A stretch of 64,000 nucleotides of DNA from Escherichia phage ETEC-TG: sequence record OR786310.1, one strand, 5' to 3'. Shown piece after piece: positions 21,001-27,000 of the stretch (position 1 is its first letter; each line of letters starts with the position of its first letter). The position numbers are program-made.

Positions 21001-24000
21001 GTGAGATTATGGAAAGACAGAAACTATGGGTTAGATGTTCAAACATATTCTCTTTGGTTGGTTGGGGAGCACAGCTTAGATGAAAGCTTGTGCATGGGTA
21101 GGGATTCTCGTTCCCTTTGTTTAAAGTTTAGAAGCTTAGAACGCGCAAACAAAGAGCAAGAAAAACTAACGAGGTGGCTAAATGAAAACAAGCGCAGGGT
21201 TGATGGAGTTTTATAAAATTTATCTAGCATGGATTGATGTTGGTGCTCCTGATGGTAAACCTTTTCGGCGAGATTGCGGTTTGTGTGCCAATTTGTTCGA
21301 TTATGTGCACGCAGATGGCTACAATCTCCTTATAACAACCTTGTCAGACGAAATGCACTCACAGTTTTACTACAAAGGGTTGAGTCAAGAACTCCCTTTC
21401 AATGAGAACTACGATGCATATGTCTTAGAATCAGATGCAGAGGTATGTCACCTGAACGTGGACAGGATTAATTGGGTAAGAGATCGTATTGCAGAGGAGG
21501 ATGAATAATGTCGGATTATAACTGGTATGAACTTGAGGCTGTTTGTCAGTTTTACGACTCAATAGTTCTGCGTGATCCAATCTGTCAAGAATTAAGTCGC
21601 CGTGCAAGTGCATTGGCAATCAATGTTAAAGTGCACGATTGGAACGCAGATCTGGAAAAAGAATTGGAATTCCTTTTGGAAACAACCCGTGTCTTCCATA
21701 AAGTGTTCCCTGAATGGTTTGAGATGGAGGAATAAGCATGTGGATTGTCCGTCTTAAGTATGATGGCAAGTTTCCGTGGGAGAAAGATGTTTGTGCCTGT
21801 GATTCAGCAGCACATGCCAAAGCAGCGGGTCAGGCAGTAGTTGACATGTATAACAACACCCCCTTTGATCCAGAAATGGCAGGTGTTACAATGAGCATGT
21901 TCACTTACTATTCTTTTGAGGTTTACTATCACGAAGGAGAGTGGAAATGAGCGAAGAGCTATTAACATTTTACCGCACGTATTTGGCATGGTTGGAAGCT
22001 GGTGCTCCTGAAGGTGAACCGTTCACCCGTTGCACAGGTTTGTGCACGAACCTCTATGATTTTTACGACATAGGAGAAAGCGAACGATACGAACCTGTAC
22101 TGGATGAAATGCATGAGCAGTTCTACCTCAAAGGTTTGGTTATGGTGTTGCCTTTCAACAGTAATTTTGGAAAGTACACCTTAGAAGCGGAAAAAGGCCG
22201 TTGTCATTTGAATGTGGATCGTGTGAACTGGGTAAAAGAACGTGTAGCAGAAGAAATAATTGGTTGACAGAAGGATCTGTCTTTGTCATAATCATCTCAT
22301 CGAAACAGAGAGGAGAAAATCATGAAAAAGTTTATTTGCACCCGTTCCACTAACAGTGATATCCTTGTAGGTAAGGTTATCAAAGGAGAACTCTTCCATG
22401 CAAACGGTAAGAAATATATTCTGCTGAAAGATTCTTTCAACGGGGAATATCCGCGCTGCACTTTCTTCAATTACAATACTCCATTTGCTTTAGAAGGAGA
22501 TGCTTGGGACTGGGCTGAACTTCATCCTTGTTGTGAGGAAGAAGAATCTATGTTCTTAGGTTTAAACGTTTACCGTGTAGATTACACCATGTGCGGAGCG
22601 GAATATTCTGTTCGCGTAGAAGCCGAATCCAAACTACAAGCACCTTTCAAGGCGGGATTGACTTTGGGTCATTGTTTGGCAAACATTGAAGATGTTGTGA
22701 TCCAAAGAGTTGTTTTAGAGAAAGAGGCTATTTGACAGAAGACGGTACAATATTTAAAATATAAAGATTAACCACAAAGGAGAGAATATGCAAGTTGAAG
22801 ACCTGATCCACATTCTGAATAAAGCTAAAGAGAAGGGTGCTATCAAAGACTGGAAACGTGAAACAAGTGAAGATTTATCTCATTGTTGCCGAGAATTTTA
22901 CATCGAAGGTATTGCTGACGATCATTATACTATTGAATGGTATATCAACTTAATGACTCTTAAGCACGGTTCATTTGAGGTTTGGTTTGATGATATTGAT
23001 GTAAATGGTTTCCATCCTGGCTATAAAATCGCTATGCAGTTATCTTATCGTAGAGAAGTTGTAGCACATTTGGGTTTACATAACTAAGGAGAAAAGAATG
23101 CAAGCAGTTGTTAACGAAGCTATTATGAACTTATCCTTCTTGTTAGCTGGTTTAGGAGGTGTCCTCATAGGTTTGGCTCTTATCTGGTGTATTCGTCGAT
23201 TAATCGGGTACCGACAAAAAGGTGTTTCATGTTTTGTATCTTATAATTTTACAACTGCTTACAGCAATGAGGTGGGATCTGGTAACGCTCAAGCATTTTT
23301 ACCAACATATCCTCCTACAGTGGAAGATATTCGAAACTTGGAAGTAGAACTTATGGGACTAAGTGATAATTATACATCTCTCGTTATTCAAAATATTTTT
23401 CGACTAAAACAGGAGGCGTGAATGAAGGCACATTACCCTCATCCCTTTGATCCTAAAAACAAAGCCGTAATTCTTCGTCAGTGGCAACGGGTTTGTCGTA
23501 CTAAATGTCCAATTAATAGCCCACACAATGTAGACAAGGATTATCTTGGGACATTTGTTGAATACACTTACATAGACAAAAACAAGCGTAAACAACATGT
23601 CGAGGAATACTGCTTAAGAGTAGAATGGCTGTAAATAATAAATACCTTGACAAGTGTTTATTCATTTTGTAAAGTGAGAATACAGCAATGGTTTAGGAGT
23701 GGTTATGAAAAAGTTTGTTGTTTACAGTCGTCTTTCTAAACAGAAAAAAGGCGAGGCACAATATGGTATGGAGAGCCAAGAGAACGATATCCGTTACTTC
23801 TTAGACTCTGTGCCTGATGCGGAAGTTATTGGTCAATTTTCTGAATACTATTCGGGTAAGGGCGATTGGAAGCAACGTAAGGAACTGGTTAAAGCGGTTG
23901 AAATGTGTAAAGCTACCGGAGCAACTTTATTGGTAGCTAAAGTTGACCGCTTGGGTCGTAACAACGCCTCCGTAGCAACTCTTCTAGAAATGATCGATGT

Positions 24001-27000
24001 TAAGATAGCCATTATGCCAGATGCAGATAAAATGGTTATACAGCTTCTGTCTGTTCTGGCTGAACAAGAGGTTAGAGGTATTGCTGATCGTATTAAAAAG
24101 GGTCTTGCTGTAGCAAAAAGCAAAGGTGTTTTATTAGGCAGTGCTAATCCTAAAACTGCCGCTGCACGTAGAAAAGGAAAAATGGAATACAACTCTGTTA
24201 AAGCAGACGCTTTTGCAGAGACATTTCGTGAACGTTTGGAGATCCTTAGAGATTTAAATACACCTTACAAAACTATTGCTGAAAAATTCAATAGTAAGAA
24301 AATAGCAACAGCACGTGGTGGTAAATGGGATGCTAAAACTGTTTCTCGTTTGTGTGCCAGACTGAACATTAAATAGGAGAGGATATGAAACAAGAAAATG
24401 AATCTGTAGATCACTTAATCATGCTGTCAGCCCTTTTTGCCGGATGGGACGTATTTTTTGAAAATTTGTTCAATTCTGCTACAGATGGTTCCGATTTTAT
24501 GCGCCAGTTTAAACGACGAACTGTTGAGGACTATGCTTTCTATTCAGGTCGGATTGAAAAAGGTTACGAAGATACAAATACAACACTCACTATTAAAGTT
24601 TTAGATGTGATGTTTAGTGTTATAGATGCTATCGACGAAAGCCTTCCGATCCTAGACAATTGTAATACGAAAGCCTATGTTTACAAAATAGCTCGTGCTT
24701 ATGTGTCTGCAAACAGTTGTCTTCTTTCCACCCAGATTGCCGTGAACAATCTTGCCAACTTGTTTGATGAAGGAGAAACTTTTTATGACAATCGATTTGA
24801 AGTGTAAGAGGATTCTTTTAGATTTCTATAATAATTGGTTAGAACACCTCCGTCTCTTTCCAAGAGAAAGTGGTTACGCTGATGTTGGCTTATGCCGAGG
24901 TCTGCGTATGTATATAAGTGATGAATTTCGGGCAGAGCATTCTTTAGCATATTCTGTTTATGGTATGCAATTAGCCAGTTTTGAAAACGCTGGCTTAGAT
25001 ACAACTTTCCCATTTAACACAGCAAAATCTTTTGAGCAAGAGTGTAAGGAAAAACGTTGTATGTTTAATGAAAAACGTGTACAGTGGGTTAAGGATCGAG
25101 TTAAACAACTGGAACAAGAGTTGGATTTCTTCTATGATGAGGCAGAATAATGGATAGACAAACCTTAAAAACAATGGCAGATGCTACTAATTCCCCGTAC
25201 TTTGAAAAAGTAAGTAAGTTGGTAGCTCAAGCCGCAGAGGAAGGATATTATAACATAAACATCCACAACCCAAGTCTTATACTAGAAATGCCAAGTGATA
25301 AGAAGATACAAGAAAGTATCTGCGAAGGTATTGTTAGTTACTGGCGCGAGCGTGGGTGTGGTGCAAACATGGCTTTAGACAGTGCAAACATTGTAAGATA
25401 TATAAATATTTCTTGGGGGTGATTTTATGATTCAATGCACTCATATCCAAATTACTTGGAGAGATGAACTTTACCATTTGGGACAATTTACTGTAGGGGA
25501 GACATACCCTGTCATTAAACATAATCCTAACATCGCAAACTTTGATAGGATGGTTCTTGTTGAGGACGATCTGGGTCAAACTTATTCTTTAGATCTAAAA
25601 TATCCGTTTTCTTACGGCTACGATTGGATCGTTACTTTTGAAGACGTGGAGGAAAATAAAACAATGAACGAAAAAAATTCTTGGTATTATCGTTGTGAAC
25701 TGCCGCCAGTAGGTGAAAAGGTTATCTTTGTTCCTGATTTGGAAAGATATTCTTGGGACAGTTCTTATTCTGTTCCTAAAGAAGGCACCGAAGTTGAAGT
25801 TATTGCACATCGCACGACTTCGCATGGTAACGATGTAGCAGTTGTTTTCTGGGATGATGAAGGCGCTGCTTGTGCAGGTGGCTTTGTTGCAGGTAACTTT
25901 GAACCCCTGCCAGATCCTTTGAAGGAGGCAATTTTAGGCGTAGCTTCTTTTGGACTCTCTTACACGTCTGCACAGGAGATCGTAGAAGGTATTTTAAACG
26001 GTACTGTTCCAAACGAAATTTTCAAACAGATTAAATAACAGTTGCACCCCGTTCTGCGGGGTGTTATTGTATATGTAAAGGAGGCGCTAATGTATTACAC
26101 TGAAGACTACATATTGTATAACTTTTTTAAAGGTTGGTTGAAATGGGCGGAACAAGCTCCTGTCGGAGATTGTGTTTTTCCTTGGGATTCTCGTCAAGGC
26201 TTGTGTCGTTGTTTGGAAGATTGGCTTATAACCACAAACTACAATTCAGAAACTAAGAAATCTACATCAAACAGATTAAAAATGTTGTTTGAAGAAGATG
26301 GTTTAGATCCAATTTATCCTTTCGGTGAGGAAAGTTTCCACAATGGTCTTTTCCTTGGCACTCAACATTATGATAAAGATCGTGTAGATTGGGTAAAAGA
26401 AAAGGTAGCACAGTATGAATGGGGTTAAGAATTATCACCGCTGGTTAGAAAGCTATCTTAAGAAATGTGAACTTGGTGTTCCAGGTTATACTTACGACAC
26501 GGACGAGATCCTTGATGAAATGGAAGTTTGGTTTAAAGAGCCTCGTGAACTATTGGAAAACATTCTAATGGCTTGGGATGGTACGGCACAAAGCATTGAA
26601 GGAGGTAGAAATGAGTAAGAAATTGTTTAATATTCGTGAGAATCGTGATGGATCGTTCTCTGTAGTCAATGAGTTTAACGTTTCAGTTGGGACTTTTATT
26701 ACTAAACGTCAAGCAGAACAAGTAAGAGATACTTTAAACAAGTAAATTTTTAAGGGGGGACTTATGTTAGGTAAGATCAAAGCCTTTTTCAAACGTATTA
26801 TCGAAGGAAGTCCAACAGAAGGTGCATTAGGAAGATCCCTAACAGGAGAACCACTTGCCATAATTTCTATCAGTCGGCATGGTGGATATTCCATTCGACA
26901 AACACCTTTAGGTATAAAAGGTAGTATGCTTTCTTGGACAATATCTCAAGTTGGTGATAACAGGCTTGCAGCTATAGCGTTACTTCGTGGGGAGTATGAC

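What the first reader, a model, noticed from the sequence alone, without database searches (positions are those of the whole stretch)
23647..24376. Serine recombinase with its own promoter inside a virulent-type early region
ORF 23705-24376 has the serine-recombinase catalytic core (YSRLS, KVDRLGRN, the E-helix region EQEVRGIADRIKKGLAVAKSKG) and a C-terminal HTH-like tail, the layout of resolvases and DNA invertases. No integrase or repressor is nearby. Possible roles are invertible-segment switching, dimer resolution, or a remnant of a mobile cassette.
Basis: partly seen in the sequence, partly recalled or inferred. Interest (0 to 1): 0.55.

Follow-up and report, generated by a model that had tools for sequence, protein, structure and literature searches.

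The report
Conserved serine recombinase in virulent coliphage
The flagged gene is a real, intact, strongly conserved small serine recombinase with its own promoter in a strictly lytic E. coli phage (Phapecoctavirus); public records already annotate it, its target DNA site is still unknown, and it behaves like neither a DNA invertase nor an integrase.

Summary
ORF 23705-24376 encodes a 223-aa serine recombinase. All catalytic residues are invariant across 56 homologues, and the structure model is confident and resolvase/integrase-like. A sigma70-type promoter at 23647-23675 recurs upstream of the homologues in four other phage lineages.

The window is a Phapecoctavirus (phAPEC8-like, about 150 kb, about 330-bp terminal repeats). 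The protein is >=99% identical in 62 phage records although their DNA differs by 2-3%; in the pair examined, all 15 differences are synonymous. It is therefore maintained, not a remnant.

The C-terminal domain is not the resolvase/invertase HTH. It is a short version of the "recombinase domain" of large serine integrases. This roughly 220-aa architecture is very common, with 3,765 clusters at E<=1e-30, including tiny Rep/Par plasmids.

In the sister genus (phi92-like) the promoter-plus-gene cassette sits at a different locus, and both "empty sites" are visible.

I found no inverted-repeat-flanked segment, no orientation polymorphism in about 60 genomes over about 81 kb, and no copy in 5,426 E. 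coli genomes.

The best guess is resolvase-type recombination at an unidentified site on phage DNA, with moderate-to-low confidence. The gene is already annotated publicly as recombinase, resolvase or invertase.

The parts
23647..23675 (+). sigma70-type promoter of the recombinase gene (TTGACA, 17 nt, TAAAGT)
   Evidence: Consensus scan gives 10/12. Equivalent promoters lie upstream of the homologues in phiWec181 (TTGACA-18-TAAAAT), phi92 (TTGACT-17-CATACT), Klebsiella phage phi1_175008 (TTGACA-17-CATACT) and Vibrio-type contigs L020/L021 (TTGACA-17-TAATAT). Function is inferred, not shown.
23637..23662 (.). imperfect 26-bp dyad AATAAATAC-CTTGACAA-GTGTTTATT centred on the -35 element; a candidate operator or site, but not significant
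   Evidence: Read. The dinucleotide-shuffle test gives p=0.40, and the dyad is not conserved in the phiWec181 lineage. Listed only as the nearest candidate.
23695..23699 (+). ribosome-binding site AGGAG, 5 nt before the ATG
   Evidence: Sequence.
23705..24376 (+). serine recombinase CDS, 223 aa plus stop
   Evidence: The protein is 100% identical in most of the 62 Phapecoctavirus records.
23735..23737 (+). codon of the predicted nucleophile Ser11 (motif Y7-S-R9-L-S11)
   Evidence: Invariant in alignments A1 and A3 and aligned with S10 of gamma-delta resolvase.
23705..24121 (+). catalytic domain plus long helix E (residues 1-139), with a deletion of about 10 residues relative to gamma-delta resolvase and Hin between helix D and strand 4
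   Evidence: Pfam match covers residues 5-142. The AF2 model places helix 109-139. Foldseek matches Sin, gamma-delta resolvase, TP901-1 and Bxb1 catalytic domains. The deletion is visible.
24149..24361 (+). C-terminal five-helix DNA-binding-type domain (residues 149-219) with the motif IAxxLNxxGxxTxRGxxW typical of the large-serine-recombinase 'Recombinase' domain
   Evidence: Weak PF07508 hit at residues 187-216. PF07508 is precomputed for homologues P0073, P0074, P0076, P0082 and P0087. Helices come from the model. DNA binding is inferred.
39806..39852 (-). 'empty site': the position, between homologues of phi92 gp054 and gp052, where the sister genus carries its promoter-plus-recombinase cassette; this window has only a small hairpin there

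Best explanation
Shown.
- The ORF encodes a catalytically competent small serine recombinase. It has a resolvase-type catalytic domain and helix E, followed by a short C-terminal domain resembling the 'recombinase domain' of large serine integrases.
- It forms a self-contained promoter-plus-gene unit in the early region of a virulent Phapecoctavirus.
- Purifying selection keeps it in essentially the whole subfamily Stephanstirmvirinae.
- It sits at one locus in Phapecoctavirus and at another in Justusliebigvirus and the Klebsiella clade.

Inferred (most likely mechanism).
- A dimer binds a roughly 30-40-bp dyad site on phage DNA.
- Two bound sites synapse into a tetramer.
- Ser11 makes double-strand breaks with 5'-phosphoserine links, subunit rotation exchanges the ends, and the ends are religated.
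- The outcome would be resolution or deletion between directly repeated copies of a single site. These copies would lie on replicating or recombined multimeric phage DNA, or on the two ends of the genome.
- The function would be accessory and non-essential for handling genome topology. The protein possibly also represses its own promoter.
- It is not an invertase switch and not a lysogeny integrase. The cognate site is not identified.
For: Identity.
- establish the family and the catalytic residues.
- The structure model has pLDDT 88.5, and Foldseek matches serine recombinases at E of about 1e-6.

Selection.
- Window vs DE16: 15 nucleotide differences, 0 amino-acid differences.
- phiWec181 vs L012: 28 nucleotide differences, 0 amino-acid differences.
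- phi92 vs L015: 8 nucleotide differences, 0 amino-acid differences.
- Deeper pairs give dN/dS of 0.06-0.19.
- 62 records encode a >=99% identical protein.

Resolvase-type reading.
- Full-length relatives (35-39% identity, 95-99% coverage) occur on 109 plasmids, 92 of them non-mobilizable.
- These include 5.8-7-kb plasmids. One (Marinovum pMaD11) is annotated with only RepA, a ParA-like protein, the recombinase and hypothetical proteins.
- A subgroup of the family carries a single conserved 38-bp dyad, ATACAAA..TAACG-YT-CGTTA..TTTGTAT, 13-38 bp upstream of the gene.
- Upstream dyads are enriched in the family: 9 of 58 non-redundant loci reach p<=0.05 where about 3 are expected.
- A Klebsiella plasmid has a 34-bp palindrome 34 bp upstream of the gene.

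Against an invertase.

Against an integrase: no copy in 5,426 complete E. coli genomes, and the protein has no zinc-ribbon or coiled-coil region.

Own promoter in five lineages.
Against: - No cognate site was found in this phage. The only dyad at its promoter is not significant (p=0.40) and is not conserved in the nearest diverged lineage.
- These phages have short direct terminal repeats of about 330-340 bp. By analogy with T7-type short-terminal-repeat phages (my own knowledge, not tested here) they would package from concatemers, so a need for multimer resolution is not obvious.
- One isolate, Schickermooser, carries a multiply frameshifted copy, so the gene is dispensable for plaque growth.
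- The gene sits at different loci in sister genera and is accessory in ICP1. This also fits a cassette with no fixed role in replication.
- The plasmid analogy rests on context, not on experiments.
Confidence: 0.4

Rival explanations
1. Selfish or moron-like cassette. The promoter-plus-gene unit persists because it can relocate or be exchanged between phage genomes, with or without using its own activity, and contributes little to the phage.
For: - The cassette sits at non-homologous loci in Phapecoctavirus and Justusliebigvirus, with recognisable empty sites in each.
- It is accessory and lies in a variable region in ICP1 isolates from DRC.
- It has its own promoter in every lineage examined.
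- It is embedded among paralogous small early genes of phrog_2510.
- One isolate carries a disrupted copy.
Against: - Within each genus the position is fixed. All ~61 genomes whose match covers most of the 4-kb query show it as one place in one context, and the phi92, Klebsiella-phage and IMG loci share the methyltransferase/HisRS-like context.
- The junctions replace about 45 bp rather than being clean insertions, and they show no flanking repeats.
- Complete amino-acid conservation over 2-3% nucleotide divergence is more than a passive passenger would be expected to show.
Confidence: 0.15
2. The enzyme acts in trans on non-phage DNA during infection, for example on the host chromosome, a resident plasmid, a prophage or a satellite, as a take-over or counter-defence function.
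For: - Expression from an early-region, host-type promoter.
- Conservation in several unrelated groups of large virulent phages: Stephanstirmvirinae, 130-kb Vibrio phages and ICP1.
- Failure to find a site in the phage genome.
- ICP1 biology shows that serine-recombinase reactions can be exploited in phage-satellite conflicts (PMC9638900), although that work concerns an unrelated protein.
Against: - There is no positive evidence at all.
- The protein matches no PADLOC defence-system model.
- No host sequence is similar to the region.
- Host range within the subfamily spans Escherichia, Klebsiella, Serratia and Salmonella, so a single host target would have to be very conserved.
Confidence: 0.15
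3. DNA invertase controlling an invertible segment, for example one affecting host range, as in Mu Gin, P1 Cin or Hin.
For: - The best PHROG family is labelled 'DNA invertase', and many GenBank records use that name.
- Two distant prophage homologues lie next to tail or baseplate genes.
- A 2.3-kb segment is inverted between the two genera.
Against: - There are no inverted repeats of 20 bp or more anywhere in the 151.8-kb relative apart from terminator hairpins and assembly ends.
- Close relatives show no segment in the opposite orientation in about 81 kb tested, including the whole tail-fibre and tailspike cluster.
- The inter-genus inversion has no repeats at its borders and is fixed within Phapecoctavirus.
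- The protein lacks the HTH_7 domain and the GRPR arm and is only 24% identical to Hin.
Confidence: 0.07
4. Cryptic integrase: it allows rare integration or a carrier state, as shown for small serine recombinases of some filamentous phages (phiRSM-type; from my own knowledge).
For: - Three distant homologues sit at or near the edge of prophage-like regions next to host genes.
- PHROG 95 'integrase' also matches at E=7.6e-22.
- A single dyad next to the gene in some family members would also fit an attP site.
Against: - No trace of this region in 5,426 complete E. coli genomes.
- No repressor or other lysogeny genes nearby.
- All isolates are described as lytic (PMC10282059, PMC12210895).
- There is no zinc-ribbon or coiled-coil domain that controls directionality in large serine integrases.
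Confidence: 0.03
5. Domesticated DNA-binding regulator that no longer recombines.
For: It is located among early regulatory-type small genes, and dyads overlap the promoter in several lineages.
Against: Every catalytic residue is invariant over a family that diverges down to about 30% identity. This would not be expected if catalysis were irrelevant.
Confidence: 0.05

Closest known systems
Tn3 / gamma-delta resolvase and Sin (small serine resolvases)
   Same: Same catalytic domain and helix E, with the same catalytic residues. Same overall order of an N-terminal catalytic domain and a C-terminal DNA-binding domain. The gene has its own promoter immediately upstream, where resolvases have res.
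   Different: No HTH_7 domain and no GR(K/P)R minor-groove arm. About 10 residues are deleted before strand 4. No three-subsite res-like array was detected upstream. It is not part of a transposon.
Hin / Gin / Cin / Pin DNA invertases
   Same: Similar size and superfamily, phage-encoded, and labelled 'DNA invertase' by PHROG 125 and in many records.
   Different: 24% identity to Hin. The C-terminal domain differs. There is no adjacent segment flanked by inverted sites and no orientation polymorphism.
Large serine recombinases (Bxb1, phiC31, TP901-1, A118 integrases)
   Same: The N-terminal S..Q spacing (YxRxS-x13-Q) and the C-terminal motif IAxxLNxxGxxTxRGxxW resemble the start of their 'Recombinase' domain. 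The best full-length Foldseek match is Bxb1 integrase.
   Different: 223 aa instead of 450-600 aa. The rest of the recombinase domain, the zinc ribbon and the coiled coil are absent. There is no evidence of integration.
Uncharacterised ~220-aa 'recombinase family protein' genes of small plasmids and phages
   Same: Full-length homology at 35-39% identity and the same architecture. The clade has 3,765 clusters at E<=1e-30, mostly 215-240 aa.
   Different: Those on plasmids sit with Rep/Par genes and long non-coding regions containing palindromes. Here the gene is in a virulent 150-kb phage with only a 70-bp upstream spacer and no significant dyad.
P1 Cre/loxP (functional analogy only)
   Same: It is a phage-encoded site-specific recombinase that cyclises terminally redundant DNA and resolves dimers. 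This is the kind of role proposed here.
   Different: Cre is a tyrosine recombinase in a temperate plasmid-prophage. No lox-like site has been found here, in the terminal repeat or elsewhere.

Membership tests
Serine recombinase superfamily (PF00239) | Nucleophilic serine in an N-terminal Y-x-R-x-S motif, plus the conserved Arg/Asp cluster (gamma-delta R8, S10, D67, R68, R71, R125) | tested here: met
   Y7, R9, S11, D81, R82 and R85 are invariant and R129 is nearly invariant. Pfam E=5.2e-18, well above the cut-off.
Serine recombinase superfamily (PF00239) | Mixed alpha/beta catalytic fold followed by a long helix E | tested here: met
   AF2 model with pLDDT 88.5 and helix 109-139. Foldseek probability 1.00 to Sin, gamma-delta resolvase, TP901-1 and Bxb1.
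Tn3/gamma-delta-type resolvases | C-terminal three-helix HTH_7 domain preceded by a GR(K/P)R arm | tested here: not met
   No HTH_7 hit even at E<=1. The linker reads GSANPKTAAARRKGK, and the alignment with gamma-delta resolvase breaks down after helix E.
Tn3/gamma-delta-type resolvases | res region with three dimer-binding subsites next to the gene | tested here: inconclusive
   Only one weak dyad lies in the 125 bp upstream (p=0.40), and there are no repeats in 23400-23720. Degenerate subsites cannot be excluded.
Hin/Gin/Cin/Pin DNA invertases | Two crossover sites in inverted orientation flanking an invertible segment, usually next to the gene | tested here: not met
   Window repeat scan and whole-genome self-BLAST of the close relative dw-ec find only terminator hairpins and assembly-end artefacts.
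Hin/Gin/Cin/Pin DNA invertases | Both orientations of the segment present among isolates or stocks | tested here: not met
   About 60 close genomes give one place on one strand for about 81 kb of the genome. Every second place among the rows shown coincides with a record end or belongs to the odd WPEC assemblies. Roughly 70 kb of the genome was not tested.
Hin/Gin/Cin/Pin DNA invertases | Fis-dependent recombinational enhancer | not testable with these tools
   This needs biochemistry.
Large serine recombinases (phage integrases) | Complete 'Recombinase' domain PF07508 | tested here: inconclusive
   18.2 bits against a cut-off of 21.1, covering profile positions 19-48 of 102 only. Several homologues carry a precomputed PF07508 hit.
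Large serine recombinases (phage integrases) | Zinc-ribbon domain with embedded coiled coil; length of about 400 aa or more | tested here: not met
   The protein is 223 aa and ends after the fifth C-terminal helix. There are no further Pfam hits.
Large serine recombinases (phage integrases) | Integrated copies of the element in host genomes | tested here: not met
   No match for 3 kb around the gene in 5,426 complete E. coli genomes, using sensitive blastn.
IS607-type TnpA | N-terminal MerR-like HTH preceding a C-terminal catalytic domain | tested here: not met
   The catalytic serine is residue 11 and the catalytic domain is N-terminal.
Clade of ~220-aa 'catalytic domain + short recombinase-like domain' proteins of phages and small plasmids (uncharacterised) | Full-length homology including the C-terminal motif IAxxLNxxGxxTxRGxxW | tested here: met
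   Most of the best 150 representatives are 215-240 aa and match profile positions 1-219.
Clade of ~220-aa 'catalytic domain + short recombinase-like domain' proteins of phages and small plasmids (uncharacterised) | Dyad-symmetric candidate site immediately upstream of the gene (seen in part of the clade) | tested here: inconclusive
   Enriched in the family (9 of 58 loci at p<=0.05) and conserved in one subgroup, but not significant in the window.

The most novel reading that the evidence does not exclude
Site-specific recombination by a serine recombinase is a regular, selected step of the lytic cycle in a whole subfamily of strictly virulent myoviruses with short terminal repeats, and in other large virulent phages such as 130-kb Vibrio phages. 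Possible forms are making circular or monomeric replication templates from the incoming or replicating genome through a still unrecognised site, or rearranging host or competitor DNA. Either would be a role for these enzymes outside lysogeny, inversion switches and transposon or plasmid resolution.
Probability: 0.2. Interest if true: 0.65.

Novelty: new member of a known kind. Interest (0 to 1): 0.35.

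Why it matters
Phapecoctavirus and Justusliebigvirus phages are being proposed for therapy and biocontrol. Recombinase genes are routinely treated as a warning sign for lysogeny in such candidates.

The evidence here indicates that this gene is not a lysogeny integrase. There is no integrated copy in 5,426 E. coli genomes, there are no lysogeny partner genes, and the integrase-specific domains are missing. The gene is nevertheless an active, selected function.

Why strictly lytic phages keep a site-specific recombinase is an open but modest question. Answering it needs the cognate site, which could not be found computationally.

Tried and rejected
1. Invertible segment: rejected on present evidence.
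- Inverted-repeat searches of the window and of the whole 151.8-kb relative found nothing suitable.
- BLAST of about 81 kb against about 60 close genomes found no opposite-strand pieces.

2. Terminator pair. The 22-bp perfect inverted pair at 30544/35279 is the same GC-hairpin, T-run terminator used on both strands, with a third copy elsewhere. It is not a recombination site.

3. Dyad over the -35 element (23637-23662): not significant and not conserved.

4. Long palindromes in the window.
- 58718-58749 lies inside a small membrane-protein ORF.
- 12011-12045 and 12114-12149 lie in the non-coding region beside the terminal repeat.
- None could be tied to the recombinase.

5. Genome-wide search for 38-40-bp dyads like the one found in a family subgroup. 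The hits were near the numbers seen in shuffles and were terminators or Fur-box-like repeats. AACGYTCGTT has one, non-intergenic, hit in the relative.

6. A site inside the terminal repeat. The repeat has blocks conserved between genera but no convincing dyad.

7. Neighbour-gene profile for 51 family loci. Most neighbours are unknown; a few are small terminase subunits or methyltransferases. There is no consistent partner.

8. ICP1 Adi (PMC9638900) turned out to be unrelated to this protein.

9. I first took phAPEC8 to carry the same frameshifts as Schickermooser. That was wrong: phAPEC8 is intact.

10. The rearranged WPEC1/2/4/6 records looked like possible inversion isomers. The WPEC6 junctions fall inside a gene and at a terminator, with no dyad or repeat, so they are misassembly or illegitimate recombination and not recombinase products.

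11. PADLOC: no hit.

Full report
**What the window is.** A 4-kb stretch around the finding is 100% identical to Escherichia phage dw-ec (OL739525.1; Phapecoctavirus, Stephanstirmvirinae) and 96-99% identical to about 60 other phAPEC8-like genomes.
- Mapping the window onto dw-ec shows it is a close relative, not dw-ec itself.
- The window runs across the physical genome end. dw-ec carries a 329-bp duplication at its two ends, many records start at the corresponding position near window 12377, and the related phage BME3 has a 342-bp direct terminal repeat (PMC12210895).
- The recombinase gene therefore lies about 11 kb inside the left end. It sits in a block of small + strand genes with host-type promoters.

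- ORF 23705-24376 (223 aa) has an AGGAG 5 nt before its ATG.
- It matches Pfam Resolvase (E=5.2e-18, residues 5-142) and PHROG 125 'DNA invertase' (E=2.6e-32). It reaches no NCBIfam equivalog cut-off.
- By sequence it matches solved Tn3 and gamma-delta resolvases (E about 1e-6).
- I aligned it with gamma-delta resolvase and Hin (sequences from memory) and with homologues down to about 30% identity. Y7, R9, S11, Q25, R58, D81, R82 and R85 are invariant, and E120, E122 and R129 nearly so. These are the positions of gamma-delta Y6, R8, S10, D67, R68, R71 and R125.
- An AlphaFold model built on 56 homologues is confident (pLDDT 88.5). Its best Foldseek matches are Bxb1 integrase, Sin, gamma-delta resolvase and TP901-1 integrase.

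**The C-terminal domain is not the classical one.**
- There is no HTH_7 match and no GRPR/GRKR arm.
- Five short helices (residues 149-219) carry the motif IAxxLNxxGxxTxRGxxW. This gives a sub-threshold match to the 'Recombinase' domain of large serine integrases, and several homologues have that domain precomputed.
- The family also has a deletion of about 10 residues before strand 4 relative to gamma-delta resolvase and Hin.
- This roughly 220-aa architecture is very common. A profile search finds 3,765 clusters (at 50% identity) at E<=1e-30, and most of the best hits are 215-240 aa matching end to end. IMG/VR alone holds more than 540 relatives.

**The promoter.**
- TTGACA-17-TAAAGT at 23647-23675 matches 10 of 12 consensus positions. 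The region as a whole has no excess of such matches, so the scan alone proves nothing.
- A TTGAC(A/T), 17-18 nt spacer, -10 element lies at the same place upstream of the homologous gene in phiWec181, phi92, Klebsiella phage phi1_175008 and two Vibrio-type phage contigs.
- This comparative evidence supports the gene being its own transcription unit.

**Distribution and selection.**
- tblastn finds the gene in 162 phage records. 62 Phapecoctavirus records are >=99% identical in protein, most of them 100%.
- Seven records are 60-80% identical. The Justusliebigvirus and Klebsiella clade is 55-57% identical. The roughly 130-kb Vibrio phages are 35-39% identical. ICP1 isolates from DRC are 30% identical, and there the gene lies in a variable region between gp30 and gp41.
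- Window vs DE16 shows 15 nucleotide differences, all synonymous. phiWec181 vs an IMG relative shows 28 nucleotide differences and no amino-acid change. phi92 vs L015 shows 8 synonymous differences. Deeper pairs give dN/dS of 0.06-0.19.
- In the diverged phiWec181 lineage the recombinase (76% identity) is better conserved than its neighbours (32-66%).
- Only one genome, Schickermooser, has a copy with six small deletions. phAPEC8 is intact.
- The protein is therefore maintained by selection but is dispensable for plaque growth.

**Two loci.** dw-ec and a Justusliebigvirus genome (VEcB) are collinear except for one small inversion, yet the recombinase is not syntenic.
- In phi92, VEcB and the Klebsiella phage it lies on the other strand block, between gp054 and gp052. 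That block also holds the DNA methyltransferase, 'HisRS-like', NinI-phosphatase and DprA-like genes.
- In the window, the homologues of gp054 and gp052 are adjacent (39852/39806) and separated only by a small hairpin.
- Conversely, the homologue of the window's upstream neighbour (DUF7202, 23422-23634) exists in VEcB at 97537-97740 and is followed by other genes.
- A promoter-plus-gene cassette has therefore been relocated or independently placed. The junctions replace about 45 bp and show no repeats, so nothing indicates that the enzyme moved itself.

**Tests of the proposed roles.**
- *Invertase.* The full-genome self-comparison shows no inverted repeats of 20 bp or more other than terminator hairpins and assembly ends. 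About 60 close genomes show a single place on a single strand for about 81 kb, including the complete tail-fibre and tailspike cluster. Among the rows shown, second places occur only at record ends or in four odd assemblies. The one inter-genus inversion (about 2.3 kb) has no repeats at its borders and is fixed within the genus.
- *Integrase.* There is no similarity in 5,426 complete E. coli genomes, no lysogeny genes nearby, and no zinc-ribbon or coiled-coil region.
- *Defence-related.* No PADLOC hit.
- *Resolvase-like.* Full-length relatives occur on 109 plasmids, 92 of them non-mobilizable. They include 5.8-7-kb plasmids, one of which is annotated with little more than RepA, a ParA-like protein and this gene.
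- One of these small plasmids has a 34-bp palindrome 34 bp upstream of the gene.
- In IMG/VR loci, dyads upstream of the gene are enriched (9 of 58 loci at shuffle p<=0.05).
- One subgroup shares a 38-bp dyad, ATACAAA..TAACG-YT-CGTTA..TTTGTAT, 13-38 bp before the ATG. This looks like a crossover or operator site.
- In the window itself the only promoter-overlapping dyad (23637-23662) is not significant (p=0.40) and is not conserved. Genome-wide dyad scans gave nothing attributable to the enzyme.

**Conclusion.**
- Identity and integrity are secure.
- The most likely mechanism is ordinary serine-recombinase chemistry at a single, still unidentified dyad site on phage DNA. It would give resolution or deletion rather than inversion or integration, as a non-essential accessory function. 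I put this at about 0.4.
- The main alternatives are a cassette that persists without a fixed role (0.15), action on host or competitor DNA (0.15), an invertase with short undetected sites (0.07), a pure regulator (0.05) and a cryptic integrase (0.03).
- The gene is already annotated in public records as 'resolvase', 'serine recombinase', 'DNA invertase', 'recombinase family protein' or 'putative site-specific recombinase'. One paper speculates on a concatemer-resolving role without data (PMC10282059).
- The finding is thus a correct reading of a known but unstudied gene. What this work adds is the selection data, the two-locus cassette behaviour, the non-canonical C-terminal domain and the negative results for inversion and integration.

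Noticed in passing
window 980-10500: At least 15 copies of a roughly 73-nt unit. Each is a sigma70-like promoter (TTGACA-17-TAAGAT/TAATAT) followed directly by GTATCACRTAGGGCGG and a GC-rich hairpin, and each precedes a small + strand ORF. This is a repeated early promoter plus 5'-leader hairpin cassette at the right genome end.
   Followed up: no
window 300-376 and 11992-12646: The motif TGAGAATSATT (up to 1 mismatch) is enriched, with 13 hits against 5.3 expected and 0 of 100 shuffles reaching 13. It clusters in two non-coding regions, one of them the terminal repeat. The sequences (e.g. AATGATAATCATTCTC) closely resemble the E. coli Fur-box consensus as I recall it. The motif is conserved in Justusliebigvirus VEcB and in the BME3 terminal repeat.
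   Followed up: partly
window 12377-12705: Probable direct terminal repeat of about 330 bp. It is duplicated at both ends of the dw-ec record, many GenBank records start here, and it aligns with the annotated 342-bp repeat of phage BME3. The window therefore spans the junction of the right and left genome ends.
   Followed up: partly
window 21182-21508, 21941-22267, 24785-25150, 26090-26428 (also about 18221): A paralogous family of small early proteins (phrog_2510; C-terminus ..RVNWVKERV..) flanks the recombinase gene on both sides. The same family is present in several copies in VEcB.
   Followed up: no
GenBank records LR597654.1, NC_052662.1, OR062526.1, OR352955.1 (homologues of window 23705-24376): The recombinase gene is annotated as 'methionine ABC transporter ATP-binding protein' in several records. 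This appears to be a propagated mis-annotation.
   Followed up: no
L006 (Schickermooser, NC_048196.1) 3000-3270, homologous to window 23705-23990: Six small deletions (1, 1, 7, 1, 2 and 7 bp) are clustered in the first 230 bp of the recombinase gene, in an otherwise 97% identical region. This is either a genuine pseudogene or a local sequence error.
   Followed up: partly
dw-ec 131064-133390 (outside the window) vs VEcB 74864-76473: This is the only inversion between the two genera, a roughly 2.3-kb group of 4-5 small genes. It has no repeats at its borders. It contains an HNH-like ORF in dw-ec and patches of 93% identity against a background of about 70%, which suggests recent exchange between genera.
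   Followed up: partly
PV763039.1 (WPEC6) 1-66000; also WPEC1, WPEC2 and WPEC4: Four records from one study are heavily rearranged relative to all other Phapecoctavirus genomes. A 31-kb block that includes the recombinase is inverted and moved. The junctions lie inside a gene and at a terminator, with no repeats, so this is probably misassembly.
   Followed up: partly
L020 3948-3979 and L021 3950-3981 (Vibrio-type phage contigs): A 32-bp dyad overlaps the -10 region of the recombinase promoter. In one contig it is the exact reverse complement of the copy in the other, meaning the asymmetric core between the 8-bp arms is flipped.
   Followed up: no
L078, L040, L089, L050, L031 (IMG/VR loci), 13-38 bp upstream of the recombinase homologue: A conserved 38-bp dyad, ATACAAA-N-TAACG-YT-CGTTA-N-TTTGTAT, is a likely cognate site of that subgroup of the family. 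There is a single copy per locus.
   Followed up: partly
phage records MG065650.1, MG065645.1, OP562383.1, OR584014.1, NC_047994.1: Records labelled as Campylobacter, Acinetobacter, Pseudomonas or Klebsiella phages are 97-100% identical to E. coli Phapecoctavirus or Justusliebigvirus genomes. The host labels look doubtful.
   Followed up: no
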